From the human T2T-CHM13v2.0 reference genome, Homo sapiens, in NCBI RefSeq assembly GCF_009914755.1, contig NC_060935.1: DNA of 64,000 nucleotides, one strand, 5' to 3'. Under the pieces are notes generated by a model. That model did no database searches. It was not told the origin of the DNA and was given only the letters and a program-made list of their open reading frames with translations. This document shows positions 519 to 53,026 of the stretch, one piece after another. The position numbers and the translations under genes are program-made. Position 1 is the stretch's first letter. Each line of letters begins with the position of its first letter.

Positions 519-729
519 CTTCAGCATACAAGGCCCTTCTATATATAGAATGAATTGCAAGAAGACACAGCCTGCGAGATAGAGACCAATCAAAAGGCTT
601 ATACAATTGTTCATAATTCACAAACTCACAGCAACACAAAACCACCTCTTGATTTCAAATGTTAAAGCTCTCCATCAAAATGGGTCAAGAGAGCAGGCAT
701 TAGGCAGAGCTGACAGCTCAGAGGGAAAT

Positions 730-1200
730 CGCTGCCACTCTGAACCACATCTACTCCTGTCTACCTGCAGGCCAGCAGGGACTTGAGCTTCAAAGGTGGC
801 TGCTTGCCAAGATGAGTTTATTTGAAGCTATGGCTCTGCAGCCTCAATCATTAGCCCTCTCCCCCAGACCTGATCCCTTCTATTCACCTAAGCTTTCCCT
901 CCACGCCCCAAGATAGGCCACTGGGAACCTCGGTAGACTGCTTCCTGAACAACAAAGTGCCTCATTAGCTACTTTTTAATGAGGTCACAGCCTGTGACTG
1001 CTCATTAATAGAGTGGTTAGTCAGCATCTCTAGGGGTAAAGGAGACTGAAGACAGAAGTCAGTGATAACAGAGCTCAGCCCAGGCGTAGCTGTGTTAGAG
1101 GGAGAAAGAACTTAGCAGAGACTCTTAGGCTTGTACTCTGATGTCTCCAGGGTCCCTTCCAGCTCTGAGACTATGATTCTGGAGAAGGACATCCAGAGGG
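730..1200. promoter_or_regulatory. Candidate OR enhancer/promoter, module A copy 1 (P3-promoter/P-element-like)
   Basis: Homeodomain sites TCATTAG 848-854, CTCATTAG 961-968, ACTTTTTAATGAG 971-983, CTCATTAA 1001-1008; O/E-like TCTCTAGGGG 1027-1036; 956-1008 identical to 32696-32748. Confidence 0.7.
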
Positions 1201-1616: not shown

Positions 1617-2064
1617 TGTTACTGAGCAAGGGCTCACTGCCCAAAGAGCATAGAAGCCAGTACCATGTCACTAGCTTTTGAGAAAAACAGCTTTATTGCA
1701 AGTCAACTGGCAAGGAAACAGAAGGAAATGCTCAAATCTGTCTCCCTGAGCTGGGGACTGGGGCAGGTTTCATAGACAGAGTAATGAGGTGTGAATGAGG
1801 TAATGCTGGGAGGCGTGATCTGACTGGATTATGCCACGGGATGATGTCAGGGCTCAATCTGATTGGATCATGTGTTGTCTGCTTGTTAATTCCGTCCCTG
1901 TTTCTTGGACTAAGCCATTAGGTTCCACTCACGATTGTGTACTTCGTTCATCTGGGCATGCTCAAATTACCTAACTTGCAACCTAGGGTCTATGGCAACT
2001 GAAAAATGACTCATTCCTTTGTTACATAAAAGTTGAACCAGATTGGTCTGGTTTCACGGTTACA
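1617..2064 (-). mobile_element. Solo LTR, ERV1/MER4-group-like
   Basis: TGTT...TACA termini, 4-bp TSD CTAA, reverse polyA signal (TTTATT near 1693); absent at the paralogous site near 33336. Confidence 0.8.
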
Positions 2065-5221: not shown

Positions 5222-5795
5222 TTACCTTTCTTTTTGACTTAATTTTTCACTGATTTAATTTTACATTCCATCCGAGAACATTTGATATACTGGGTCCTGA
5301 AGACAGAATTGTGATTGAGCTGCTGCTCTCTAGTTGGTGCTGGCCCAGTAGATAAGACAGAGAAGTAAACAGACAATCATAAAATGAAATTTCATTCGAT
5401 GTACTTCACTATGTGATAATGCCACACTTTGATCATTGCTATCATAAAAGTATTCAACCACTCTCCAAATTATTCCTTGGAAATACGTTTTTTTACTCAT
5501 CCTCTATGGTTAATTCGTATTTCCGTTGTCACTGCTACTGCCCTTGTTACTTATTCCTTTTTCTTATTCCCATCTTTCATTGGCATATTCATTTAATCAA
5601 TGAATATTTATTAATGTATACTAAAACCCAAGAGTATAACAATGAGCTAGGTACTGCCCTCTAGGAGCTCCTGCTCTTTCAGACAGACAAGTAAATCAAC
5701 AGCTATGGAACAAAAAGTGCCATGCAAAGGGCTTTACTATGTTATAATCTTATTCTGATATATACTATCATAGAAGTGTTCAACAAGTCTCCTAA

Positions 5796-6092
<297 letters not shown>

Positions 6093-8832: not shown

Positions 8833-9699
8833 ATAAAAATATACAATTTTTAATCAATCCCCTATTGATGGAATTAAGGTAATTTTCCCATTCTTTTGCT
8901 GTTAAAAATTGTAGTCCAATAAAAAACAATCATAATTTTTCCTCGCTCTAAAATTGTGATTCTGCCTGAATCACTATTTCTATCTCGTGCTGCTCACTAA
9001 CCATTTCAAAATCTTAGGGCTTCAATTCATTTGATCAACATTTGGACAAAAAATTATATCTCATACATTTTTCTTAACCATGACCAGCCTAAGATTAGCC
9101 AAAAAAAACCCCCAAATTTTATACTAAAGGAAGTCTACTTGATTGAGTCCTTTCTGTCAGCAGTTTCCTGTTTCTCATCTCAAATTTTGTTTATAATGAC
9201 TAGTCTTATGTACTTAATCATTCATTTGTTCAACACCTGAATTCTGCCATTCAAATGTATGCTTTATGAGCAGAGAGACTTCACATGTTTTGTTCATTTC
9301 TCTATCTCAGGGTCTAGAGCAATGCCTGGCATGTAGCAATTACTCAATACATATTTGTTAAATAAATGAAAAATTATTGCCATATGATAGGTTATAGTAA
9401 TATAATGTTAATGTGAGATTTTATATATATATGTTGTAACATAATATATTAATATGATTGCTAATATATGTCATCTCATCACACCAATCCTATAAAATAA
9501 GCCTTATGATCTTTGTCTAAGCCATATGGAAACTGAAACTCAGGAAGTTTGATAAATCACTAAATACCTAAAGTCAGTGAGTTTGAGAGCTGGTTTTAAA
9601 CTTAGATCACTAAGAATCCAAAAGTTTTGTGCTTTACTTTGCACAACCCTATATCCCTAGAGTATGGTTTTTCTTTTTGAATTCATCCTTTTGACATCC

Positions 9700-10340
9700 A
9701 ATATTTCTTTGGGCCCCAAAGAACAATAGATTCAAGAAAGGTCAGGTCCTCCTGAGGAAGGGAAAGAAGAGGAGCTTCGGTGAGCCCAGAAACATCAGGG
9801 AGGTGGCCGGTGGGGATAGAGGTGCCAGCCCTTCAGCTGTCCCTGAGGACAAAAGAGGCACGACTGGGAATAATTTTCTGAAAGCCAGGACAGGGAGCAT
9901 GGCCAACCCTCCTACTGTGCTCACTCACCTCTAACATGCCACTAACACACAAGGCAGCAGTGAGCAGGCTACAGCTTCAGCCATTATTAGCTCAGCTGGA
10001 ACAAGGAATAGGACTTCGCTGATTTCTCTTTTGGCTTTGCTGAAACAAAGAGAAAGCTCTTTGATTACATTTATGAAACATGTGCATGAAGGGCATGCAT
10101 GAAGCATGGAAGTCAGGCAGAGCTGAACAAGGCACATGTTCTTGTTCGACACGGGTAAGGCTTTTTGCCAAGGACCTAATTTACCAGGGGCCACTCTCCA
10201 GCTTCAGTTGCTCAACTGGACAAGGTTTGAGCAGGGTTTGTGGGATACTTAATTTTATTCCTCTGCTCACACTAGGAAGATCTTATCAGTTCCTCTCTTC
10301 TCTAGGTCTGTTTTCTTTGCCTGTATTATAAGGTAAGTGA
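9700..10340 (+). promoter_or_regulatory. Candidate OR10A5 promoter / 5' non-coding exon, module B copy 1
   Basis: O/E-like TCCCTGAGGA 9840-9849, homeodomain CCATTATTAG 9981-9990, donors GG|GTAAGG (10155) and AAG|GTAAGT (10333); homologous to 39370-39970. Confidence 0.55.
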
Positions 10341-10766
10341 GATCTAAGGCTGCAGAAGAAATAAATGACTCAGGATTTTTTTCCTAACTCTATCCTGTAA
10401 AGCTTTCCAGGTTAGAAAAATTTCAGTAGCCGGAGCTTCCATAGGACATACACCTCTTCCAGGTCTTGATTTTCCTCTGATTAATTCAGGGAAGACTTAC
10501 CTCACTAGAACATTCATGAGGCAGAGGACATCAGGAGACACTACTTCTTTAGGGAAGTTTTATGGTTACAGAAGGCCTAGGAGAGTGGGTTTCTATTCCA
10601 GGGACAGTTGCTCAGATGATTAGCAAATAGCTGCTCCTGGGGAAGTTCTAGAGGAACTGTCAAGGAGCCTGGGGGCTGGCTATGGGCCATCAGCTTCTTC
10701 AATGTCTCCCACACTGGAGACAGGTCACCAGCTCTTCTTCCCCAGTAGGTTCCAGAAGTTCTATAG

Positions 10767-11207
<441 letters not shown>

Positions 11208-19305: not shown

Positions 19306-22093
19306 GTACAAATAGTTATTTGAAAAACTTCTGACATTTATTTACTTCTGGACAAACAAATAAGTGGGAAGAGCTGTCAGTATAAACCTCTTTTAATTTT
19401 AGTCTTTATCATTAAAATTGCCTGAGTTCTTAGAACACAGAACAAACAAATTTGAATGCATTTGTGACAGTTTAATAATTTGTATGTCTCATTATGATCT
19501 TTTAATAGGAAGTTTTAAAGCCAAAGCATAATTTACTGCAAAGATAAATTAGAAAAGGCAAATAAACTTTTTAATAATATGTTATAGTGACCTGGACAAA
19601 ACTGATTATTAACTAGTAATACAATAATTAGAATATGCAACCGATTGAGAAATTAAATCCTGTGCTACATACTCGTAAGTATTTTGTCAGACATGATATA
19701 TATTTAAATGTTTCTATCAATTGCATTCCTTTTGCTGCATATATCAGTTTTTATTTAAAACAAGAAAACAATTCTCTTTCCTCCAGATTCTCATGTTAAT
19801 CAGTGCAAAATATTGCAATTTTAGTAAAAATTGTTTATTACAATGTTATTTTAGAACGGCTTATTCCTTAAACTATCGAAAATGTACTTAAAAAATCCAA
19901 ATTATGAGAATGATCAACTTCAATGGCTTCCTCGACATCCAGCTTGGCTTCTCCATGTCCTTCCTGTGACTTATCAAGAGAGGCCAGGGCCTCATTTTTG
20001 TCACTTGTAAAAGTTTCTCATGATATATCATCATCTTGAAAATTTAGACTTTTAATAGCTTATTTCATTTTTTCATTGTGTTCTCTTCCTAGCAGCTTTT
20101 TAATTTTCATATTCCTTTTGATTTTCTATGTAGAAAACATCCTTAATTTGTTCCTTGCTGATACTAGGAGTGTTTTTCAAGAGATTCAGAAAATCTCCAC
20201 CTGGTGTTCTCTTCAACTACTATTCATTATAAAGAGGCCACCATTTTGTTCTACTTCAGCAGTTTCCAGCAGAACAATTGCCTTTTGTTCCCAATAATCC
20301 TCACTGCTTGAGCCATCGGATCTTTCTTTGGTTCCTGTAACCTGAATAACATTTCATCAGCCACTTTCTCTTGGGAATCTTCCTCTGTGATCTCGTATCA
20401 ACCTTTATAGTTCATTTTTGGTTCTGGTCTGTTCCCTAGCCTGTCTTTGACAGGTCATTTCCTTTTGAGATGACCTTGCCCCTTTTCCTCTTCCTTTGAT
20501 CCCATTTTTTTGTTTGTTTGTTTTTGCCACCATGCATATATTCAGCTAGTTGTTTGTCTAGCCCTTTCGTATGCTCTAGAGATTCCCTCTTAAGTTTCTT
20601 AGCAAGCAAACAATCATAGGTCTCGGATTGTCTGCTTCTGTCAATAGTGCCCTCCATTCCCAAGATACCAAGTTCAGTGGCCACTGCATCTTAATTCTGT
20701 TCCTGCAGTACAGCACCCCATATGTTGTTAACCTTCTTTCCTCCAGAAACAGGTGGTTTCTGACTGCTCTGGCCAAACTGAAAAGACTCTGGTTTGGGAG
20801 GAGAGTTTACATATTTCCATCACTTCCACTTCCAAAGACAGCTATCATCATCTGAATCAGAAAAACTCTCTTCACTTGAATCCACACTTTCAACAACTCG
20901 GTAATGTGATACTGGTGCACATGCAGTCGCCCTGCTCTGGAAGGCCCTTATAAGCACTGTCCCCACCTAGCACTTTCCACACTTGCTGCAGCCTGTTGCT
21001 GGGTGTGACCATTATGTCGGAATCTGAGTCAGGTTGGAAAGCTGCCCATCTTCCATGTCGCTGGCCTCCAACACCATCTTCCCGTGGTGCCTATGCCTAT
21101 ATTTTAGCCAACATTATTTTCATCTCTGTTGCCTAGAAAGCCTTTAAAGATGATGTTATGTGTCCCTGTGCCCCTTTAAGGTACTATGTATTTTTGTATT
21201 TTGACTTTCATTGTGATGTGTTATAATTGATTATTTAAATATTTTATCTATTAAATTCTAAGCTTCAGTGAATAATCATTGTATCATCAGTGCTGCCATA
21301 GAAATTGAATAAATACAGACTTTCCTTTTATATCATTTAAGATTCTATCTCGTTTCATAACTTTTTATCCATGAATGTTTTCCTTTGAAACTTCACTCTA
21401 ATGTTTCTTATATTTTTTATAGTTTTTTTTTGTGGGAGTCTGTTTTATTTTTTCCAATTTTCCTGTTCTTGAAAGGGAAGTAGTCAGAATCTCCTTGGAC
21501 ACAGTCACTTTCCACAGAATTGTAGTACAATACTCCTCTCCGATCTTAATTTTGAGAGTCAGTGGATTATGCAGGTACTAAGAATCAGTTGCCAATTATA
21601 GATATGCTGGACCAAAGAGGAAACTGCTAACATTGTTTCCCACAGTCTGATTTGGCAAGAAAGAATAAGTATTACGTGATTTGAAGTGGTCTACAATTCT
21701 TACGGTGAGTGAGGGGGAAAGTGCATTAAAACAACCACACCCTATAAACATTCTCACTCATCCATTCCCCTCTATTATTTCTACTTTGAATAACTTCAAA
21801 ATAAAATACGATACAAGATCAGATTTGTTTTAGTAAATAGGCTAACAAGATATAAAATGGAACGTAAAAGAGAGGAGAAAGGTGACCTATTGCTCATTTC
21901 ACTGCTTAGGTTCTGACCACGTTTTATTGTGTCTTTATTCTTAGCCAACACAAGACCCTTCCTCTTCCAGCTGAGGTGCTGACCTTGCCTCTATCCCTGA
22001 CATTAAGAGAAAATCTGAAAAACAGATTGAGAATCTGACTTCCAATCAAGAATCTCTCTCCAGGACCACAGCTGGGGATTTATGCCCATACTT

Positions 22094-23047
22094 ATGGCTA
22101 TAGGAAACTGGACAGAAATAAGTGAATTTATCCTCATGAGCTTCTCTTCCCTACCTACTGAAATACAGTCATTGCTCTTCCTGACATTTCTAACTATCTA
22201 TTTGGTTACTCTGAAGGGAAACAGCCTCATCATTCTGGTTACCCTAGCTGACCCCATGCTACACAGCCCCATGTACTTCTTCCTCAGAAACTTATCTTTC
22301 CTGGAGATTGGCTTCAACCTAGTCATTGTGCCCAAAATGCTGGGGACCCTGCTTGCCCAGGACACAACCATCTCCTTCCTTGGCTGTGCCACTCAGATGT
22401 ATTTCTTCTTCTTCTTTGGGGTAGCTGAATGCTTCCTCCTGGCTACCATGGCATATGACCGCTATGTGGCCATCTGCAGTCCCTTGCACTACCCAGTCAT
22501 CATGAACCAAAGGACACGGGCCAAACTGGCTGCTGCTTCCTGGTTCCCAGGCTTTCCTGTAGCTACTGTGCAGACCACATGGCTCTTCAGTTTTCCATTC
22601 TGTGGCACCAACAAGGTGAACCACTTCTTCTGTGACAGCCCGCCTGTGCTGAAGCTGGTCTGTGCAGACACAGCACTGTTTGAGATCTACGCCATCGTCG
22701 GAACCATTCTGGTGGTCATGATCCCCTGCTTGCTGATCTTGTGTTCCTATACTCGCATTGCTGCTGCTATCCTCAAGATCCCATCAGCTAAAGGGAAGCA
22801 TAAAGCCTTCTCTACGTGCTCCTCACACCTCCTTGTTGTCTCTCTTTTCTATATATCTTCTAGCCTCACCTACTTCTGGCCTAAATCAAATAATTCTCCT
22901 GAGAGCAAGAAGTTGTTATCATTATCCTACACTGTTGTGACTCCCATGTTGAACCCCATTATCTACAGCTTGAGAAATAGCGAGGTGAAGAATGCCCTCA
23001 GCAGGACCTTCCACAAGGTCCTAGCCCTCAGAAACTGTATCCCATAG
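22094..23047 (+). CDS. OR10A5: Olfactory receptor 10A5 (class II OR, 317 aa)
   Basis: Intronless 7TM ORF with N5 sequon NWT, LHSPMYFFL, MAYDRYVAIC, HFFCD, KAFSTCSSH, PMLNPIIYSLRN; an in-frame ATG at 22082 would add MPIL. Confidence 0.95.
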   Translation: MAIGNWTEISEFILMSFSSLPTEIQSLLFLTFLTIYLVTLKGNSLIILVTLADPMLHSPMYFFLRNLSFLEIGFNLVIVPKMLGTLLAQDTTISFLGCATQMYFFFFFGVAECFLLATMAYDRYVAICSPLHYPVIMNQRTRAKLAAASWFPGFPVATVQTTWLFSFPFCGTNKVNHFFCDSPPVLKLVCADTALFEIYAIVGTILVVMIPCLLILCSYTRIAAAILKIPSAKGKHKAFSTCSSHLLVVSLFYISSSLTYFWPKSNNSPESKKLLSLSYTVVTPMLNPIIYSLRNSEVKNALSRTFHKVLALRNCIP

Positions 23048-23982
23048 ACCTTAGGAAGTAAGGCTAAATTCTATTGAATGACAATTAGTTTCATGTTTGG
23101 GACACCTCTCTGCCTCTCTTCACATATCTGTTGGAATGAAACCCAGCTATTGAAATGGCTATTGGAAAGCTCTGTGGAGAGAAGAGAGCCCAGTGTTGGT
23201 GTAAACCTGTCATTATCATCTGCTAAATTTCTTTACCTGCCCATCGTAGACTTACTCTGTTTTTCTTATTGGTGCAATTGGCACTTTGAGACTTCTGTGG
23301 CCAAACCATTCGAGATATTTACTTTGCTAATGAGCACAAATGTGACATATATTGTGGACAATCTGAAACTACTTGTAATATGACTTTGGGGATACACAAT
23401 GGGCAAGACAATGAGAAGTATCAAATGTCATCTTGGCCATCATCTTGGTTTGGAAAATTCTGACACCATTCAGTAGAAAACCCTATAATACTTCTAGTAC
23501 ATAATTCTTGCTCTTCATTTCATTTTACATGCCCCTAAGGAAGTGTTGGCTTTTATGTTTGTTGATATTTAGCATGGATAGAGAAAATAGGATCACTAAT
23601 CCCCATACATATTCCTTTATAAGCCCAATAGCCTTAAAAGACTCCTTCCTTAGGCTATTCTTCCTAGGTAGAATAAGCTATTTCCAATTGTCTCTTGCAA
23701 ATTCAGTTTCAGGTTCTTAATCCTTGTTAAAGTAATTTCAAAATTTCACAAACATAATTTCAATCATAATGCTGCTTTTTTCAAGGCTTACAGTGGATCT
23801 TAGCTGACTCCTAATATTTGCTTAGTGCCTTTAAATTTTAAGTTTTTATATATTGTTGATATGAAAATACAAAATATCATAAAGCACAATCATTGCCATC
23901 AGAAGTTAATAATTTAGTCAACAATGGGGGATTTGTAAAAGCAAATTCATTTTACAATTAAGCAAAGTAAGATTCAAGTTCT

Positions 23983-29464: not shown

Positions 29465-32124
<2,660 letters not shown>

Positions 32125-32469
32125 GGAGGATTAGTTTGATGAGGTAAGTAAGCATCAGATCTTGAAAGTCCTCTATGCTGAAGTGTTTGAATGCTATCTT
32201 GTGAACTATGTAAATCAATTTAAGCGTTTTCAGCATGAAAAAACAATCAGATATGTATTTTGGAAAAATTACTTTGGCAGTTGTATGGCAAATGGGCCAT
32301 AAGGGGACACAGGCTATAAGACAGAGACCAGAGACTTCTGTAAATGAGCAGTTAAGAGATATGAGACCAAAACTCAGTGCAAGGAAACCCTCTTCTTAAT
32401 CTTCAGAAATTGAAGTCCCTATCAAAATAGGACAGCAGAGCAGACATGCTACCAGCTCAGAGGAAAATC

Positions 32470-32950
32470 ACTGCTGTTCTGGACCACATCTACTCCCGTC
32501 TACCTGCAGGCCAGCAGGACTTGAGCTGCAAAGGTGGCTGCTTGCCAAGATGAGTTTATTTGAAGCTATGGCTCTGCAGCCTGAGTCATTAGTCCTCCCT
32601 CCCATATCTGATCCTTTCTATTCACTTAAGCTTTCCTTCCAGGCCCCAAGATAGACCACTGGGAACCTCAGTAGACTGTGCTCCCTGAACAACAGAGTGC
32701 CTCATTAGCTACTTTTTAATGAGGTCACAGCCTGTGACTGCTCATTAACAGACTGGCTAGTCAGCATCCCCAGGGGTAGGGGAGACTGAAGACAGAAGTC
32801 AGTGATTACAGAGCCTAAGTGTAGCTGTGTTAGAGGGAGAAGGAACTTAGCAGAGACTCTGAGGCTTTTACTCTGAGGTCTCCAGGGTCACTTCCAGCTC
32901 TCAGAGACTATGATTCTGGAGAACATATTGAGGGACCAGGGCCTTTTTGG
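32470..32950. promoter_or_regulatory. Candidate OR enhancer, module A copy 2 (P-element-like), between OR10A5 and OR10A2
   Basis: TCATTAG 32586-32592, CTCATTAG 32701-32708, ACTTTTTAATGAG 32711-32723, CTCATTAA 32741-32748, O/E site TCCCCAGGGG 32767-32776. Confidence 0.72.
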
Positions 32951-35399
32951 GAGGAAGTGACAACAGAGTCAAGTGATCCCAGGCTTGTAACAGCTGTTGG
33001 TCTAGAGAGATTGTTTAGGAAGTCAAATGCTCTTCAAGTTCTCTTGGATGCTTACGGAAACGGAATATTGCTTTTGCAACCTTTTGTCATCTTGCCTTCC
33101 ATAACCATGGATTTTCTTGCTATTCCCTGTACATGATTAAGTGCAGATTGTTTGGATTATTTTCCAAGTATTTTTAAACTGATCCTGGGAGTTAATTTAT
33201 TGGCCCTCTTCTATACTCCCTGTTTACTGTCTCCTAGACATCCCGTTCATTCACAGGATTCCAACCTATCACTCCTCTGGAGATGAAACTTGGGCATCGA
33301 CTTATATCTCCCACTAGGATTAGTGCTACAGCCTCCTAATTGTATTCCCTGCCTCCAGTCATGCTGCAGATTTACACATATACCTCATTCCCATTCAGCC
33401 CTTAGTCTCCCCAGAGTTCTTTCTAAACACACGTGGCAATCTGTCTTAATCATGTTTAAATTCCTTATGAATCACCCTCATAATCAGAATGAAACCATCG
33501 TACTTAGCATGTCATACAAACCTTATATTCCAGTTCTAGTTTCTCTTTCAAATTTCAGTTCTTACCATACTCCCATCCATACATTTGAATGGGGTATGAT
33601 GAAAATAGTGCATCATACTGAACTATTTTCTTTTCCCTTATACCATGCATTTTTAATTTCTCTAAATGTGCTTTTTTGTTTCTCTCAAAAATTTGGAGTC
33701 TAAAAAGCCTTAGTTCAAATTGTGTGTCTGCTACTTACCAGATATGAAAATCACTCTGTTTCTCTCCTATTTCCTCTTCTGTGAATTGAGTGATAATATC
33801 TTGTGGATTTAATGCAAAGATGAAATGAGAATAATGAAACCTACTGTGAAGATATTAAGAGGCCAGCCATTCTGTGACAGCAGAGGTAACAGGTGGGCTA
33901 ATCAAATGATATTAGCCAACAACTAACACCTGTGGAACTTTATGACTTTTATCTATTCTTTGTTATTTTTTACATTTAAAGTAATATATCAGTTATGTAA
34001 AATTCCCAATAGGTATTTGCTATTATTCATAACACGAGTAAATTATTAGGTTCCCTCCTTTTCCCAGTGAACAGAGTAAAGAGAGGAAGTAATATGTTAA
34101 ATATGAGCTACATGTTTGTCAATAAAGTGTTATTTACTCCTCACAGGTATTAACAAGAAGTATATAATATGGCCAAGTAACAAGTAATGGGTGTCAAAGT
34201 TTGGGTTTGAATCTAAGTCTATCTGATTCCAAAATATCATGTTTAAGATAACATATTTAATCTCTAAAATATAAAGAAAGAATCTAAGAGTCTAGAAAGA
34301 TATTTGGAAGTAAAGGAATGTAATATGGACAGCCAAGAGGCTTCAGGAGGGTTATAAGAGAGAGGAAAAAAACCTTTGAGGCCAATAGACATAAATGGAT
34401 GACATATCACCATATTGTAACCTATTTCTTTGGGGTAATTGAAAGAAATGAATAGTTATTTTTTATTCTCTAATGCAAGCTCTTTATTCTCTAAATCAAG
34501 CTACTTGGAAAAGAGTACGTCTTCAACAGAAGGTAGACATTATTATTAAATCTTTATATCTTTACTCAATTCCTCTGCCTGCTATTCTTGCCTATCACCC
34601 CATACTCACCATACCAAGTTAATCCCTACATATTATTTAAGATTCAACTCTAGTGTTTTCTCTCCTATGAATCTCTCCCTGATTCCTCTAGGCAAGTCTG
34701 AGTTTGCTCTCCTTTGTACACATGTGATATCTTGTATATATAATTGTTAAGCATTGAAGACATTGAAATTGTCTCTTCATAAGCATAGAGGATACAGTAA
34801 GAGCAGTTCATCATTCTTGTTTGTATTTCTGACACCTAGTCCAGTGCCTGGCATATAGTAAGTACTCAGTAAATGACTGAAGAAATGCATAGTCCCCAAG
34901 TTGTTTCTCTAGCCTTGGCCTGTTCCATTCTCACTGAAAAGTGAAAATTGTCTCTGAGACATTTCTGCCTAGGTGTCAAGGCACATGTCAGACAACAACA
35001 AGCTCTCAGACAAAATTTTCTCCCATTCTCTAAATCATGAAAGAAAAATGTCTTATTACATATTTATTGCTTTTACCCCACTTTTCATTGACATATTCTT
35101 TCATTTAATCAGTGAATATTCATACTGAATCCTGAAGGTACAACAATGAACAAGGTGCATCCCTCTAAGAGCTCCTGGCTCCTTAAGTGAGAAAACGTAA
35201 ATACACAGATACAGACAAAAAGACAGTGCCATGGAAAAGGCTTTACTGTATTATAATTTTGCATTGATAAGTGCTATCAAAGAAGTGTTCGATCAGTCTC
35301 CTAATCCTATTAATTCCTCCTTGGCAACATCTTCTTACTCAAACCTTGGTTAAATACCCATTTTCACTGCCACTGTCATGAGTCTAGCCAGTGGATCTT

Positions 35400-38650: not shown

Positions 38651-39369
38651 CTAGCTTTTAAAAGCATGGATCAATTTAATATCATTTTATCTCTATCTTG
38701 TATTGTTCACTAGCTATTTCAAAATTAGGTAGCCTCAATTCATCTGAACACCCAAGAGACTGGGGATGATGTCTCCTACATTTTCCTTAACAATGACCAG
38801 AATAGAACCAAATAACAACAGCAAAAATTCTTACGCCAAAGTCTACATGTCTGCGTCCCACTTTCCGTGCAGTTTCCTATTTCTTCCTTCTGGATTCAAT
38901 AACAGCTATATTAGTCATATGTTCTTAGTTGTTATCTTATAATTTATCTAATTGTAGTTCACATTTCCCCATTAAAATGTAAGCTTTATGAATACAGGAA
39001 CCAAACCTGTTTTTGTTTTACTTCCATAACCTAATGCTTAGGAGAGTATTTGACATTTAGTAGATACTTAATGAACAATTATTCAGCGTGCAATAGGTTT
39101 AACTAATATAAGCCATTTAATTTCATCATAACACTAACTCTGTAAAATAAGAACATTTGTTGTCTTTAAGAAATGTGGAAATCAAAGCTCAGCGAGTTTA
39201 ACAAAATTGCTAAGCATTATGAGCCAGAGTTCCAGTGCTGAGATTAAATTTAGGTTGCTCTGACTTCAAATTCTTATAGTGCTTCTCTACACAATGCTGC
39301 TTCCCCTAGCCTGGAGTTTGGTTTTTCTTTCTTGAATTTTATCCTGTTGGCATCTGAAATTCATTATAT

Positions 39370-39970
39370 TCTCAAAGGATGGTAGATTCAAACAAGACCA
39401 GGTCCCCTGAGGAAAGGAAGGAAAAGCCTATAAACAGCTGGGAAAAAATACAGGTCTCATCCCTTCGACTAGCCCCAAGAACAAAAGAGGCACAGGTGGG
39501 AACAACTCTCCCAAAACCAGGACTGGGAGCATGGCCAAACTTCATAGTGAGCTTACTTGCCTCTGACACACAAGGCAGCAGTGAGCTGGCTACAGCTCCA
39601 GCCATTAATAGCTCAGCCAGGACAGGGAATAAGACTTCCCTGGTTCTTCTTTTGGCTTTGCTGAAACAGAAATAGAGCTGTTATATTACATGCATGAAGG
39701 ACATGCATGAAGCATGGATGTCAGCCAGAGTTGAACAAGGCAGATGTTCCTGTTGGACACAGGTAAGCCTTTTTTTTTTTTTTTTTTTTTTTTTTCCACC
39801 AAGGACTGAATCTACCAGAGGCCACTCTCCAAGTTCAGTTACTCAGCTGCACAAAATATGATCAGAGTTTGGATACCTAATTCTATTCTTATGTTCACAC
39901 TGGGAGATCTCATCAGTTCCTCTCTCCTTGGGCATCAGTTTACTCTATGTCATAAGAAAAGTGAGATCTG
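39370..39970 (+). promoter_or_regulatory. Candidate OR10A2 promoter / 5' non-coding exon, module B copy 2
   Basis: O/E-like TCCCCTGAGGA 39403-39413, homeodomain CCATTAATAG 39602-39611, donor CAG|GTAAGC (39763). Confidence 0.6.
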
Positions 39971-40271
39971 GGCTCACAAAAAGACTGATATTACCCAGGC
40001 TTTTTCCAATTCTGTCCTCTAAAGTTTTCTGAGTCAGGAAGCTTCCAGGCCCTACAACCTTCACAGGACATATACCCCCTTCAGGTCTTGATTTTCGTCT
40101 AAGTAACACAAAAAAGACTTGCCTCAGTGGAACATTTATGAGATGGAGAACATCAGGGCAAACTACTACTTTACAACAATTCTACAGTCAGAGAAGGCCT
40201 AGAAGAGTGGGTTCCAGGTCCTGGGACAGTCAGGTGATTAGCAAAGGGATGTTCCTAGGGAAGTTCTAGAG

Positions 40272-40489
40272 CAAGTTTGTCCAACCTGTGGCCCATGGGC
40301 CACATGCGGCCCAAGATGGCTTTGAATGTGGCCCAACATAAATTCATAAACTTTGTTAAAACATTATAAGATTTTTTTCCTTTCTTTTTTGCTTATAAGC
40401 TATCATTAGTGTTAGTGCATTTTATGCGTGACCAAGAAATTTTTCTACTTCCAATGTGGCCAGGGAAGCCAAAAGATTGGACACCCCTG
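40272..40489 (-). mobile_element. MER30 (hAT-Charlie MITE)
   Basis: CAAGTTTGTCCAA...TTGGACACCCCTG TIRs; 8-bp TSD TTCTAGAG; empty site at 10646-10653. Confidence 0.92.
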
Positions 40490-41304
40490 TTCTAGAGGAA
40501 CTGGCAAGAACGCTGTGGGCTGGCCATGAGCTGCCACCTTCTGCAATGCCTCTCCCACACTGGAGACGGGGCACTAGCTTTTCTTCCCCAGTAGTTTTCA
40601 GAAGTTCTGTGGAAATCCCAGCAAGTGTTTCTGCCCCTCCTTCTCCCCAGTCTTCTCCGCCAGCACCACATACAACACATCTGTCATGAGGCTTCTAGTT
40701 AAAGTGCGGTTCTAACAAAAAAAAAAAGAACAGTCATTGAGAAAAAAAAATTCTAATAGTGAATAAAAACTCCAAGAAGAATGAACTTTGTAGAACTCAT
40801 GTAATCCTTTATACAATCAGCTGTCCAAAAACATGTATGAATAGCTTACTTGGTAAAAACACTGGGCTTCTTCTTATAAAGATGACTAAGACAGTTTATA
40901 CTATGGAGAAGTTTAAAGAGTGAGATATATATTGGTAGTAGAAATATCTGAATAATTAAAAACATTTTTAAAGGATAGAGGAAAATAGAGAAGATGACTA
41001 ATCCTATCTGGAAGTATCACATGACAGACAGAGCTGAGTTTTGAGGATCTGAAGGAGTCAGCCAGACAGAGGAGGGGATGTGCAGGCAGAAATGATGTCA
41101 CATGAAAAGGCAGAGGCAAGCAAAAAGAACTCTGTTCAGTAAATAGTAAGAAGCTCAGCAGTGAAGCAGAAGAAGGAGAGATGGATGTGGGAGACCAAAG
41201 ATGACATTTCGGGTGTAGCTTAAGTTCATTTCATATGGCTTGTTGAAAACCCCAATTTTGTAATTATAAATTTTTCTGTTTTAAGTTCAGGCTCTGCCAT
41301 TTAT

Positions 41305-44458: not shown

Positions 44459-46120
44459 TACAGTGAAAGAGTTTCTAGTTGAGATGATCTGTCTTTTCAT
44501 CATTGGTTCTTTTATTATTTTTTAAACTTACATTTGTTTTTCTGAAACTGAGCTAAAAACTGTAGACATTGCTTCATTTAATGTTTAGCATTTCTGAGAA
44601 ATCTTAGATCAGTTTGATTATAATTCTTTTATAAGAATGGTGTTTTTTCCTTCATAGATTCTCTGGAATTTTAAACATAACCTTGAAGTTCAAATTATTC
44701 ACCAAGACCTGACTAATATTTAGCCTCTTTTAAATAAGTTGTCTGCTGCTTGAAAATGGATTGTGCGTAAAGACGGAGGGTAATTATAGATATACCACCT
44801 AGTCTTCTTGATCCGAGGCCTACAGATTTTGATCCCTTCTCTATCCCATTCTATCAACAATGTCAGAGTGATCCTTCTAAGTAGCATTATGACAATGTCA
44901 CTCTGCAGCTTCAAATATTCAGGTGAATCTCCTCATCTATAAAATAAAGTCCAAAATTCTCAGCATGTAATATAAGTCTATTAATGTAATATATCCAAAA
45001 CACTGACCATATCTTTGTTTATCTTTTACTTTGTGTCAGCTCTGGTTTTTACTGTTCCTAATAAAGTTTTTAATTTTTATTATTAATTTTTTTAACCACA
45101 GTTTGCTAACCACATTCATTTCTTTTTTTATTTATCCCAGCCTCTCAATTTCATTTTCCAGCTTAATATCACCATTTCTCCACTAGACTTCAATATTCTA
45201 GATTATGAATACAATAAGAAGAGCCTCTAGATAACCAACTGCAAATTAGAAACCAGTAATACAAAATTGGGATTCAGTTGTGTCTAGGAAATCTCCTAAA
45301 CATCTTAATGCTGATGATGTTGGTTCTCGTGCTTATCTTTGTCTGTCTTCACTGTGATTTTGCAGAAATGCCAATTCTAATTCTCCTACAAATTAATAAG
45401 TTAGTCATCAGATAAGGCATGACAGTCCAACAAAGCATGATTTAGTAAAAATCTGAAGGGTTTTGTAATCCAATAGATGTGGTTTGGATTCAAGATCTTC
45501 CATGTGATTTGTGTTTCTTAAATTATCTGGGATCAGTTTCCTCATGTATAAACCAGAGATATAAAAGAACAAAAACATGCATATGTAAATGGTCCTCAAT
45601 ACATGCTAACCTTTCACCCTCCTCTCAAATTCTAGCCAGTCAAGAAAGGTTCATGAAGAGTAGAAAACATATTATATGCATTCTTCATGATAGTTATAAA
45701 TATATTTCTAAAGTTTTGATAAATTTAAATGTATGTGTTCTTTTACGAGATTATAAACACTTGGTGTGTTTCATAAGTTTAAGTGTTTTCAGAAACATCA
45801 CTTTCTCCCAAAATGTATCCTTTGATGGACCCTTCAGAAACTTGTGATTCTGACTTTGCATGCCCTTTCTGAATAACTTAAGGTGTGAACAGAAATATCA
45901 GCTCCTCTAGAAGCTGATTCAGGCCCATCTCAGAGATTAGGCTCTGGCTACTATTTATTGTGTTTTATTCTTAGACAACCCAAGGCACTTCCTCTGCCTG
46001 AGGTGCTGACCTTGCCTCTTTCCCTGACAGTAAGAACGAGTCTGAAAAACAAATTGAGAATCTGACTTCCAATCAATAATCTTTCTCCATGACCACAGTT
46101 GGGGACTTCTGCCCATACTT

Positions 46121-47074
46121 ATGGCTACAGGAAACTGGACAAGAATAAGTGAGTTTATCCTCATGAGCTTCTCTTCCCTGCCTACTGAAATACAGTCATT
46201 ACTCTTTCTGACATTTCTAACCATCTACCTGGTCACCCTGATGGGAAACTGCCTCATCATTCTGGTTACCCTAGCTGACCCCATGCTACGCAGCCCCATG
46301 TACTTCTTCCTCAGAAACTTATCTTTCCTGGAGATTGGCTTCAACCTAGTCATTGTGCCCAAAATGCTGGGGACCCTGCTTGCCCAGGACACAACCATCT
46401 CCTTCCTTGGCTGTGCCACTCAGATGTATTTCTTCTTCTTCTTTGGAGTGGCTGAATGCTTCCTCCTGGCTACCATGGCATATGACCGCTATGTGGCCAT
46501 CTGCAGTCCCTTGCACTACCCAGTCATCATGAACCAAAGGACTCGTGCCAAACTGGCTGCTGCCTCCTGGTTCCCAGGCTTTCCTGTAGCTACTGTGCAG
46601 ACCACATGGCTCTTCAGTTTTCCATTCTGTGGCACCAACAAGGTGAACCACTTCTTCTGTGACAGCCCACCTGTGCTGAGGCTGGTCTGTGCAGACACAG
46701 CACTGTTTGAGATCTACGCCATCGTCGGAACCATTCTGGTGGTCATGATCCCCTGCTTGCTGATCTTGTGTTCCTATACTCGCATTGCTGCTGCCATCCT
46801 CAAGATCCCATCAGCTAAAGGGAAGAATAAAGCCTTTTCTACATGTTCCTCACACCTCCTTGTTGTCTCTCTTTTCTATATATCATTAAGCCTCACCTAC
46901 TTCCGGCCTAAATCAAATAATTCACCTGAGGGCACGAAGCTGCTATCATTGTCCTACACTGTTATGACTCCCATGTTGAACCCCATTATCTACAGCCTGA
47001 GAAATAACGAGGTGAAGAATGCCCTCAGCAGGACGGTCTCTAAGGCCCTAGCCCTCAGAAACTGTATCCCATAG
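46121..47074 (+). CDS. OR10A2: Olfactory receptor 10A2 (317-aa ORF; 303 aa from second ATG at 46163)
   Basis: OR motifs as in OR10A5; 16 aa differences from OR10A5 by manual comparison; lies between OR10A5 and OR10A4. Confidence 0.93.
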   Translation: MATGNWTRISEFILMSFSSLPTEIQSLLFLTFLTIYLVTLMGNCLIILVTLADPMLRSPMYFFLRNLSFLEIGFNLVIVPKMLGTLLAQDTTISFLGCATQMYFFFFFGVAECFLLATMAYDRYVAICSPLHYPVIMNQRTRAKLAAASWFPGFPVATVQTTWLFSFPFCGTNKVNHFFCDSPPVLRLVCADTALFEIYAIVGTILVVMIPCLLILCSYTRIAAAILKIPSAKGKNKAFSTCSSHLLVVSLFYISLSLTYFRPKSNNSPEGTKLLSLSYTVMTPMLNPIIYSLRNNEVKNALSRTVSKALALRNCIP

Positions 47075-47353
47075 ACCTTAGGAAGTAAGGCTACATTTTA
47101 CTGGATGAGAAACAATCAGTCCCAGATTTGAGATTCCTCTCTGCATCTTTCCACATCTCCAATAAGATGAAGTCCTGTTGCTGAAATGGCTTTTGGAAAG
47201 CTGAGTGGAGAGAAAGGAGCAGAGAAGTAGTTTCGACCTAGCACCACCAACTATGAAAACTCCTCTGCCTGCCCATTGTAGACTTACATTGTTTTCCTTG
47301 TTTCAACTGGTATGACAGCACTTCTGTGGCCAACTATTTCCAGGTGTTATATT

Positions 47354-51761: not shown

Positions 51762-53026
51762 TAACAGAATTTGTTTATAACCTGTCTTCCCTATGATGAG
51801 TTTTATGAGGGCAGAGATTTTTGCTTGTTTTATTTACTAATGTATTATCTTCAGTATCTAAAACAGAGCATAGCATACAGAATTATCTTCTGATAATCAA
51901 TATTTACTGAATTAATTATTTTATTTTAGAGATTGAATAGTAGGGGCTATAGTGAGTTTTGGCAATGAGCTGGATAAGAAGATTTAGAAGATAGGTCTAG
52001 CATTATATCAATAATTATAATGGTTAACATTCATGGAACATGTACAGTATAGCAGACAACATGCTAAGTGCTTCAGATTTTATTCCTCCATATGTTTATA
52101 GTCATCACAAAGAATTTCAGGGTCCCAATTTTGAAGCTTCGTTATTAATGCAATGATGAAATCTTTTGTTTCCTTTTCATGGGATTTCATATTAGTCACA
52201 CTTGCATATTTAAGTTGTATTTTATTAACATGTAAAATGTGAGCTTCAAGTTTCTTGAGAGTCAAGACACAAGTCAACCAAGAGAGCTGATGAAAAAGTT
52301 CATGCTTAACCCATCTAGATTCTGTCCATGGTTCTGATGCTATCTTGACACATACAACCACTTGGAAAATACTCATCCCTGGGATCAAGATAAGCCACAC
52401 TGACTATGTTGTGTGTCTTCTTGTTTACACTGCAATTTTCAGAGTGTAGAAATTGAGATTCTCACAATATAGTGAAACCTTCCTGAGTATGGGCTTCTTG
52501 AGATTGAGACACATTCGGATCTCCTCCTCAGGAATCATTTAGTAATTGCTGAATCAGTTTCTTTGATTTTCTCCTTCCTACATTTTTGTTTTGCAAAAAA
52601 TATACCTGCCTGACCTCACCACTTTTCATTATGTGTCACGACCTCTCTCTTCATAAATGCTTGGCCTGCCTTTCTTAGCACCATTATTGAAGAGAGATAA
52701 GGTAGGAGCATGAACATAAAGCTGTGATTTTGCCCATTCTCTACAGAGAACAGAAAAATCAGGACATGTATAGATATATATAGTATGTTAATTAAGTCTG
52801 GAAAAGTAGAATTCTTTCCCCAAAAATTGTGAATCTAATGGTCAAATTTGTTTTATTATATTTTGGAGAGTATAGATGTTTGATCCTCAACAACTCTAAC
52901 AAGGAAAGTAAAGAATGAGGCCACAGGAGGTCCCCTTTATAAGAATATAATAAAGGTATAAATAACATATGAGATTTCTTCTACCTTCCTAGATTTTGAA
53001 TGCCCAGTGAAGTCCTGGGCAGAAGA

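What the first reader, a model, noticed from the sequence alone, without database searches (positions are those of the whole stretch)
32470..32950. Module A copy 2 lies between OR10A5 and OR10A2: best candidate for a human P element
Seen: same homeodomain core as copy 1 but a closer-to-consensus EBF site (TCCCCAGGGG vs TCTCTAGGGG; consensus TCCCNNGGGA). Known (from recall): the mouse P element is a ~300-bp paralog of the P3 promoter lying between P3 and P4 and sets choice probability of nearby ORs. Inference: a duplicated promoter-like module acting as the cluster enhancer, so variants here could change expression of the OR10A/OR6A2/OR2-family neighbours.
Basis: partly seen in the sequence, partly recalled or inferred. 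Interest (0 to 1): 0.8.

Follow-up and report, generated by a model that had tools for sequence, protein, structure and literature searches.

The report
Human counterpart of mouse P element
A roughly 325-base stretch between the smell-receptor genes OR10A5 and OR10A2 looks like the human version of a mouse switch, the P element, that sets how often nearby receptor genes are chosen; its activity in people is untested.

Summary
TCCCCAGGGG lies at 32767-32776 and TCTCTAGGGG at 1027-1036. Both sit in a roughly 1-kb paralogous block, 32370-33340 against 622-1617.

The block is not a lone duplicated promoter. It is the upstream end of an old tandem duplication of the whole gene unit, OR10A5 unit against OR10A2 unit. 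Its 325-nt core (32455-32780) is 90.7% identical between copies. Other colinear non-coding blocks are 72-81% identical.

A 40-nt homeodomain block of mouse and rat P and of the P3 promoter, printed in a supplement of PMC6744719, matches the reverse strand of both copies at 32-36 of 40. A 22-nt core pattern allowing either the rodent or the human letter at its two variable places occurs only at these two places in the whole T2T genome.

Gene order and strand are the same in mouse (Olfr2, P3, P4, P2) and human (OR6A2, OR10A5, OR10A2, OR10A4). Copy 2 therefore sits where I recall P to lie.

Limits remain. Sequence cannot tell P from the P3 promoter, because the human copies were homogenised (coding dS 0.13). 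P's mouse coordinates were not obtained. No functional data exist. The verdict is a probable human P counterpart: a new member of a known kind, of moderate interest.

The parts
32455..32780 (+). Module A copy 2, high-identity core (T2T chr11:6914455-6914780; by a constant offset of 58411, GRCh38 chr11:6856044-6856369)
   Evidence: 90.7% identical to 716-1040, K2P 0.101. Sliding identity is 43-50 of 50. It is a local GC peak of 0.47-0.49 in flanks that are mostly 0.30-0.44. Offset taken and the hub annotation.
32700..32724 (+). Inverted pair of homeodomain sites, CCTCATTA - 9 nt - TAATGAGG. It includes the extended HD motif at 32710-32722 (TACTTTTTAATGA).
   Evidence: 12 of 13 match to AACTTTTTAATGA. 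HD sites at 32702 (-) and 32717 (+). The 22-nt rodent core matches 32701-32722 (-) at 20 of 22, with 0 expected.
32742..32747 (-). Third homeodomain site (TCATTA) of the core cluster
   Evidence: identical in copy 1 at 1002
32586..32591 (-). Fourth, upstream homeodomain site (TCATTA)
   Evidence: conserved in copy 1 at 848
32767..32776 (+). O/E (Ebf)-like site TCCCCAGGGG, about 20 nt 3' of the last HD site
   Evidence: 12 of 15 to the mouse P O/E 15-mer, which is not significant on its own.
32781..33340 (+). 3' extension of module A with intermediate paralog conservation and no strong splice donor
   Evidence: 84.2% identical, K2P 0.18. Best GT donor score is 5.5 bits, against 11.1 for the real OR10A2 exon-1 donor.
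716..1040 (+). Module A copy 1 core, upstream of OR10A5; the O/E site is degenerate (TCTCTAGGGG at 1027-1036)
39310..40274 (+). Module B of the OR10A2 unit: the annotated promoter and exon 1 (39468-39762), 6.7 kb 3' of module A copy 2
   Evidence: Hub annotation and the HAVANA model. The paralog in the OR10A5 unit is at 9656-10656.

Best explanation
Module A copy 2 is the human counterpart of the mouse P element.

What it is. It is the upstream homeodomain/O-E module of the OR10A2 gene unit. OR10A2 is the positional orthologue of mouse P4 (Olfr714). The unit arose with the OR10A5 unit (positional orthologue of P3, Olfr713) by an old tandem duplication. Copy 1 corresponds to the P3-promoter module and copy 2 to P.

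What is shown. The duplication structure, the homology to rodent P and P3 promoter, its uniqueness in the human genome, and the synteny of the flanking genes are shown.

What is inferred. In olfactory sensory neurons the three TAATGA sites would bind Lhx2-type homeodomain proteins and the CCCCAGGGG site would bind Ebf (O/E). The occupied module would then act in cis to raise the probability that OR10A2, and to a lesser degree its neighbours, is the receptor gene chosen. It lies 6.7 kb 5' of the annotated OR10A2 start and has no usable splice donor. In humans it would therefore work as a distal element rather than as the productive promoter.
For: (1) Colinear duplication of the whole unit: module A, three further non-coding blocks, module B with OR10A2 exon 1, and the coding exon.

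(2) Module A core has K2P 0.10. Other colinear non-coding blocks have 0.22-0.37, and its own 5' flank has 0.44.

(3) The 40-nt HD block printed for mouse P, rat P, mouse P3 and rat P3 in the PSWM-1 file of PMC6744719 aligns to the reverse complement of 32691-32730. Matches are 33, 36, 35 and 32 of 40 (hand count). The central 22 nt were checked by tool: 20 of 22 at both copies, nowhere else in the window, 0 expected.

(4) Whole T2T genome: the 121-nt HD/O-E core hits only the two copies. The 22-nt pattern allowing rodent or human letters, with up to 1 mismatch, hits only the two copies. The reversed control gives 0.

(5) Synteny from the Barnes 2020 gene tables. Mouse: Olfr2(-), Olfr713/P3(+), Olfr714/P4(+), Olfr17/P2(+), Olfr715b(-). 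Human: OR6A2(-), OR10A5(+), OR10A2(+), OR10A4(+), OR2D2(-).

(6) The architecture matches what papers say of P: three HD sites with the extended one central (figure legend in PMC4721658), a neighbouring O/E-like site (PMC5638857), and a length of 317 bp (PMC7804114) against a 325-nt human core.

(7) Mouse P and P3 O/E stretches both read CCCCAG. Copy 2 keeps this and copy 1 reads CTCTAG.

(8) In 12 human olfactory mucosa samples, OR10A2 has normalised counts of 2.7-73. OR10A5 has 0-3.0 and OR10A4 0-1.8.

(9) No strong donor lies 3' of the module, and the curated OR10A2 start is at module B.
Against: Only 40 + 26 nt of the roughly 317-nt mouse element could be compared.

Both human copies match equally well, so sequence does not say which one is P. 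At the positions that separate rodent P from P3, the human letters are mixed.

The coding regions of OR10A5 and OR10A2 have dS 0.133, well below the flanking K of 0.29-0.36. Gene conversion has therefore acted in this pair, and it could account for the high paralog identity of module A without selection.

Mouse P's coordinates were not obtained. Its place between P3 and P4, and its distance from the P4 start, are recalled.

The printed HD block aligns to the minus strand and the printed O/E block to the plus strand of the window. The orientation in which the paper printed them is unknown.

A pipeline using P-derived matrices on conserved human sequence reported only one human element, on chr7 (PMC6744719 main text).

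No composite (juxtaposed) Lhx2/Ebf motif is present, because HD and O/E are about 20 nt apart. Mouse P itself shows little Lhx2, Ebf or Ldb1 ChIP signal in bulk mature neurons (PMC8213819).

The expression asymmetry is correlative. It may be confounded by 95% coding identity and by a changed splice acceptor in OR10A5.
Confidence: 0.6

Rival explanations
1. Vestigial or alternative promoter. Module A copy 2 is the ancestral start site of the OR10A2 unit, as the homologous module is for mouse P3. In humans it either still fires at low level or is a dead promoter, with no enhancer effect on neighbours.
For: Papers call mouse P 'remarkably similar' to the nearby Olfr713 promoter. Mouse P3 exon 1 is 559 nt, and the human 3' extension of module A is about 560 nt with intermediate conservation. 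There is a local GC peak, as reviews describe for OR start sites. HD and O/E are spaced as in promoters, not juxtaposed as in most Greek Islands.
Against: The curated human OR10A2 model from olfactory mucosa RNA-seq starts at 39468, 6.7 kb 3' of the module. No GT donor above 5.5 bits lies within about 900 nt 3' of the module, against 11.1 for the real exon-1 donor. This reading does not exclude enhancer action, since promoter and enhancer roles can coexist.
Confidence: 0.15
2. Relic without function in humans. The module is similar to copy 1 only because gene conversion between the two units homogenised it, as it did the coding regions.
For: Coding dS is 0.133, and there are only 8 differences across coding positions 127-632, against a flanking K of 0.29-0.36. 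Module A core has K 0.10, in the same range as dS. Copy 1 has already lost its O/E site. The human element was not called by a conservation-based pipeline.
Against: The HD block is 32-36 of 40 identical to four rodent sequences. That is far above what I recall for neutral human-rodent DNA (about 65-70% where alignable). The three HD sites and their 9-nt spacing are intact in both copies. The gene next to the intact copy is the best expressed of the neighbourhood.
Confidence: 0.2
3. Parallel, not orthologous. Primates and rodents each duplicated a single ancestral P3/P4 unit independently, so copy 2 resembles P by parallel history and is not its orthologue.
For: The human copies are closer to each other (39 of 40 in the HD block) than to any rodent copy. 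Rodent P and P3 likewise differ from each other at 6-7 of 40 (hand count).
Against: Three colinear same-strand genes are flanked by the same neighbours in both species. K between the non-converted human blocks is 0.28-0.37. By my recalled human-branch length of about 0.16 substitutions per site, that puts the duplication at or before the primate-rodent split. No masked repeat interval listed in the hub annotation lies at homologous positions of both units (compared by eye with the colinear blocks). Concerted evolution is directly indicated by the low coding dS.
Confidence: 0.15

Closest known systems
Mouse P element (class II odorant receptor choice element of the P2/Olfr17 cluster, chromosome 7)
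   Same: Clustered TAATGA homeodomain sites, with an extended central site that is 12 of 13 identical. A neighbouring O/E-like site. A core of about 320 nt. Paralogy to the module upstream of the P3 orthologue. A position inside a colinear gene stretch.
   Different: No functional test in humans. The first base of the 13-nt extended motif differs. Two bases differ in the spacer between the inverted HD sites. The full sequence was not compared. The human copies are homogenised, so the P versus P3 identity is blurred.
Mouse Olfr713 (P3) promoter
   Same: 35 of 40 in the HD block, and the same O/E core letters CCCCAG. Module A copy 1 sits upstream of the P3 orthologue OR10A5.
   Different: In humans no transcript start is annotated at either module A copy. 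OR10A2 starts at module B. Copy 1 has lost the O/E-like site.
H element and Greek Islands (Lhx2/Ebf-bound intergenic OR enhancers)
   Same: HD plus O/E content. The extended HD motif is shared with H. The position is intergenic within an OR cluster.
   Different: No juxtaposed Lhx2/Ebf composite motif, because the nearest HD and O/E sites are about 20 nt apart. The composite tolerates not even 2 inserted bases in the assay of PMC5608512. Mouse P likewise shows weak Lhx2/Ebf/Ldb1 signal.

Membership tests
Orthologue of the mouse P element | Sequence homology to mouse P over its roughly 317 bp | tested here: inconclusive
   Only the 40-nt HD block and a 26-nt O/E stretch are printed in a source I could read. 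Matches to mouse P are 33 of 40, and 17 of 26 by hand count. The central 22 nt match at 20 of 22 by tool, with 0 expected. The rest of P was not available.
Orthologue of the mouse P element | Lies between the P3 and P4 orthologues in a syntenic cluster | tested here: inconclusive
   Gene order and strands are colinear, and copy 2 lies between OR10A5 and OR10A2. The coordinates of mouse P itself were not obtained, so its place between P3 and P4 is recalled.
Orthologue of the mouse P element | Closer to P than to the P3 promoter | tested here: not met
   Copy 2 matches at 33 (mouse P), 36 (rat P), 35 (mouse P3) and 32 (rat P3) of 40. Diagnostic positions are mixed, and both human copies are alike. 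Concerted evolution in the pair is indicated by dS 0.133.
OR choice elements (H, P, J type) | Several homeodomain sites (TAATKR) clustered, one of them the extended AACTTTTTAATGA | tested here: met
   Three sites lie within 46 nt (32702, 32717, 32742) and a fourth at 32586. The extended motif matches at 12 of 13, at 32710-32722.
OR choice elements (H, P, J type) | Neighbouring O/E-like site (YYYCARRRR) | tested here: met
   CCCCAGGGG at 32768-32776 in copy 2. It is absent at the homologous place of copy 1.
OR choice elements (H, P, J type) | Deletion lowers the choice frequency of cis-linked OR genes; open chromatin with H3K27ac and H3K4me1 in olfactory neurons | not testable with these tools
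   No human olfactory chromatin or genetic data are reachable here. RefSeq lists no functional element in the window (hub annotation).
Greek Islands | Juxtaposed Lhx2/Ebf composite motif | tested here: not met
   The nearest HD (32742-32747) and O/E (32768-32776) sites are 20 nt apart. I had no composite matrix, so only spacing was judged (for the spacing rule).
OR gene promoter | HD and O/E sites within a few hundred bases 5' of a transcript start, followed by a spliced 5' exon | tested here: not met
   The curated OR10A2 start is at 39468. No donor above 5.5 bits lies 3' of the module. Human RNA coverage is low, so a weak start cannot be excluded.

The most novel reading that the evidence does not exclude
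The human cluster carries two P-like choice modules kept alike by gene conversion. One of them, copy 1, is naturally crippled by two C-to-T changes in its O/E site. This natural 'O/E knock-out' and the intact copy 2 would together explain why OR10A2 is chosen far more often than OR10A5 in human noses. Human variants in the O/E or homeodomain sites of copy 2 would then be cis-acting determinants of how many neurons express OR10A2 and its neighbours.
Probability: 0.25. Interest if true: 0.6.

Novelty: new member of a known kind. Interest (0 to 1): 0.45.

Why it matters
H, P and Lipsi are named in a 2017 review as the only OR elements robustly confirmed in vivo in the mouse (PMC5318403). Pinning its human counterpart to about 325 nt gives a concrete target for three kinds of work: human olfactory ATAC and Hi-C, allele-specific expression, and fine-mapping of smell traits near OR10A2, OR10A5, OR6A2 and OR2D2. 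It also offers a clean case of a duplicated promoter module retained as a distal element, with a paralogous copy that has lost one site. It is, however, the expected orthologue of a known element. Older papers that I could not read (Lane 2001, Bozza 2009, Khan 2011, Vassalli 2011) may already mention it.

Tried and rejected
Papers not held: Lane 2001, Vassalli 2011, Khan 2011, Bozza 2009, Markenscoff-Papadimitriou 2014 and Plessy 2012. The primary descriptions of P and of the mouse-human cluster comparison were therefore not seen.

Conserved-element BED of PMC6744719: the held text is cut before chr11, so the absence of hits says nothing about constraint.

Monahan 2017 supplements: number searches gave only unrelated peaks, and a phrase search gave nothing.

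Main-text searches for P coordinates found none.

Literature searches for a described human P element or human Greek Islands returned no relevant paper in the held library.

Rfam: no match in 32000-33600 at E up to 1.

Transposon origin is rejected. The 346-nt core has 3 matches in the 3.1-Gb genome: itself, copy 1 and one 180-nt fragment.

A spliced first exon is disfavoured.

Motif clustering as evidence on its own is rejected as too weak.

The mouse P O/E 15-mer match at 12 of 15 is not significant alone: 4 hits against 1.21 expected, and 5 of 100 shuffles reach 4.

Full report
**What is there.** The finding's two strings are real and unique in the window. TCCCCAGGGG lies at 32767-32776 and TCTCTAGGGG at 1027-1036, with 0.05 and 0.07 matches expected from shuffles. 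They sit at homologous columns of a paralogous block, 622-1617 against 32370-33340, 82.6% identical.

Identity is not even along the block. A core, 716-1040 against 32455-32780, is 90.7% identical (294 of 324 aligned, K2P 0.101). The next 560 nt are 84.2% identical (K 0.18). The 85 nt on the 5' side are 67% identical (K 0.44).

The core holds four TAATGA/TCATTA homeodomain (HD) sites, at the same places in both copies: 32586, 32702, 32717 and 32742 in copy 2, and 848, 962, 977 and 1002 in copy 1. Two of them form an inverted pair, CCTCATTA - 9 nt - TAATGAGG.

I used the O/E definition printed in PMC5638857, YYYCARRRR. Copy 2 has an O/E-like site at 32768-32776, and copy 1 fails at the homologous place.

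Motif content alone is weak evidence. Four clusters of three or more HD sites within 50 nt occur in the window, against 3.6 expected. One of them, copy 2, has an O/E-like site within 40 nt, against 0.32 expected.

**Context: a duplicated gene unit, not a duplicated promoter.** Self-comparison of the window gives a colinear series of blocks:
- 622-1617 against 32370-33340
- 2065-2379 against 33336-33666
- 5543-5797 against 35052-35306
- 9656-10656 against 39310-40274, which holds the annotated OR10A2 exon 1 at 39468-39762
- 10645-10871 against 40489-40706
- 21892-23304 against 45923-47333, the coding exons

Module A is therefore the upstream end of an old tandem duplication of a whole unit: module A, module B (promoter and exon 1), and the coding exon.

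K2P in the other non-coding blocks is 0.22-0.37. By my recalled human-branch length of about 0.16 substitutions per site since the primate-rodent split, that dates the duplication to about that split or earlier. This date is an inference.

None of the masked repeat intervals listed in the hub annotation lies at homologous positions of both units. I judged this by eye against the colinear blocks.

The module is not a dispersed repeat. The 346-nt core has three matches in the 3.1-Gb assembly: itself, copy 1, and a 180-nt fragment 6.4 kb 5' of the window that keeps only the 5' part and lacks the HD and O/E sites. Rfam finds nothing in 32000-33600.

**Homology to the mouse P element.** The primary papers on P were not held. 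A supplement of PMC6744719 (the PSWM files) does print 44-nt stretches of mouse and rat P, mouse and rat P3 promoter, and H. It also prints 26-nt O/E stretches of P and P3.

The 40-nt HD block aligns to the reverse complement of window 32691-32730. Matches are 33 (mouse P), 36 (rat P), 35 (mouse P3) and 32 (rat P3) of 40. Copy 1 has one match fewer in each case. These are hand counts.

The central 22 nt, which are identical in mouse P, rat P and mouse P3, were checked by tool. They match 20 of 22 at 32701-32722 and at 961-982. There are no other hits with up to 3 mismatches, and 0 were expected.

In the whole T2T genome, a 22-nt pattern allowing either the rodent or the human letter at the two variable places, with up to one mismatch, occurs only at these two sites. 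The reversed control gives none. The 121-nt HD/O-E core likewise hits only the two copies.

The 13-nt extended HD motif, described as shared by H, P and the P3 promoter (PMC7804114; PMC6744719 main text), is present at 12 of 13 in both copies.

The mouse P O/E 15-mer matches 32761-32775 at 12 of 15. That is not significant on its own. Mouse P and P3 both read CCCCAG there. Copy 2 keeps this, and copy 1 reads CTCTAG, so the two T's of copy 1 are most simply derived losses. This last step is an inference.

One caveat concerns orientation. The printed HD block aligns to the minus strand and the printed O/E stretch to the plus strand. I do not know in which orientation the paper printed each.

**Synteny.** The gene tables of Barnes et al. 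2020 (PMC7055050 supplements) give this order for mouse chr7: Olfr2(-), Olfr713/P3(+), Olfr714/P4(+), Olfr17/P2(+), Olfr715b(-). For human chr11 they give OR6A2(-), OR10A5(+), OR10A2(+), OR10A4(+), with OR2D2 as the next row. OR2D2's minus strand comes from the hub annotation. Order and strand are the same.

Copy 1 thus sits upstream of the P3 orthologue.

I could not get P's coordinates from any source. [quoted passage not shown]

The same tables fix the coordinate offset between assemblies at 58411 on both sides of the element. The copy 2 core is therefore GRCh38 chr11:6856044-6856369.

**What sequence cannot decide.** The human copies differ at 1 of 40 HD-block positions from each other and at 4-8 of 40 from any rodent sequence. 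At the positions that separate rodent P from P3, the human letters are mixed. Assigning copy 2 to P therefore rests on position only.

The cause is probably concerted evolution. The OR10A5 and OR10A2 coding regions are 95.4% identical, with dS 0.133 and dN 0.023 over 303 codons. Only 8 differences fall across coding positions 127-632. The 3' flank, by contrast, has K 0.357.

The same process could explain the high paralog identity of module A. That identity is therefore not proof of selection. The argument for constraint is the rodent comparison of the HD block, and it covers 40 nt only.

**Promoter or distal element.** The curated human OR10A2 model, built with olfactory mucosa RNA-seq, starts at module B (window 39468), 6.7 kb 3' of module A.

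The real OR10A2 exon-1 donor scores 11.1, and its paralog in the OR10A5 unit scores 9.1. Mouse P3, by contrast, starts at its module (exon 1 is 559 nt).

The HD and O/E sites are about 20 nt apart. There is thus no juxtaposed Lhx2/Ebf composite of the kind that marks most Greek Islands. Mouse P itself shows little Lhx2, Ebf or Ldb1 signal in bulk mature neurons (PMC8213819).

The module is a local GC peak (0.47-0.49) in flanks that are mostly 0.30-0.44.

I read this as a promoter-derived module that in humans acts, if it acts at all, from a distance.

**Expression.** Normalised counts come from 12 human olfactory mucosa samples (PMC7055050 Supplementary File 6):
- OR10A2: 2.7-73
- OR10A5: 0-3.0
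- OR10A4: 0-1.8
- OR6A2: 0-24

The gene 3' of the intact module is the best expressed. The gene 3' of the module with the broken O/E site is nearly silent.

This is correlative. The two coding regions are 95% identical, so read assignment may be affected. OR10A5 has also lost the splice acceptor that OR10A2 uses.

**Known or new.** Five searches of the held library found no paper describing a human P element, human Greek Islands, or an enhancer at OR10A2/OR10A5.

A pipeline that used P-derived matrices on conserved human sequence reported one human element only, on chr7. RefSeq lists no functional element in the window (hub annotation).

The papers most likely to mention a human counterpart were not readable. 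These are Lane 2001, which compared this very cluster between mouse and human, and Bozza 2009, Khan 2011 and Vassalli 2011.

I file the element as a new member of a known kind, with that reservation.

**Verdict.** Homology to P and the P3 promoter is strong, and it is unique in the genome. Positional correspondence to P is good but rests partly on recall. Enhancer function and any effect on neighbouring receptors are inferred. Interest is moderate.

Noticed in passing
L003:1428-1608 (window -6531..-6351; T2T chr11:6875470-6875649): A third, partial copy of module A lies between OR6A2 and the window. It keeps only the 5' 180 nt (86.7% identical to copy 1, 78.6% to copy 2), including the near-invariant block GACTTGAGCTGCAAAGGTGGCTGC..GCCAAGATGAGTTTAT. 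It lacks the HD and O/E sites. No further colinear blocks follow it.
   Followed up: partly
window 9656-10656, donor at 10154/10155: The OR10A5 unit carries an unannotated paralog of OR10A2 exon 1 with an intact donor (GACACGG|GTAAGG, 9.1 bits). RefSeq and HAVANA model OR10A5 as a single exon.
   Followed up: partly
window 22002-22003 versus 46029-46030: The AG acceptor of OR10A2 exon 2 reads AT at the homologous place in OR10A5. About 60 nt further 3', OR10A5 has CTCTCTCCAG where OR10A2 has CTTTCTCCAT. The two paralogs therefore seem to have swapped acceptors.
   Followed up: partly
window 46121-46162: The OR10A2 reading frame stays open for 14 codons 5' of the annotated ATG (46163), back to an ATG homologous to the OR10A5 start (MATGNWTRISEFIL...).
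   Followed up: no
window 22094-23047 versus 46163-47074: The coding regions are 95.4% identical with dS 0.133, and only 8 differences fall across coding positions 127-632. The 3' flank has K 0.357. This is the signature of gene conversion between OR10A5 and OR10A2.
   Followed up: yes
window 1618-2064: About 450 nt are present in the OR10A5 unit and absent from the OR10A2 unit at 33335. This is either an insertion in one unit or a deletion in the other, directly 3' of module A.
   Followed up: no
window 52721-52901: A cluster of HD sites (TAATTA, TAATGG) with an O/E-like site lies just 5' of the annotated OR10A4 exon (53004). It is probably the OR10A4 promoter. It has no sequence similarity to module A.
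   Followed up: no
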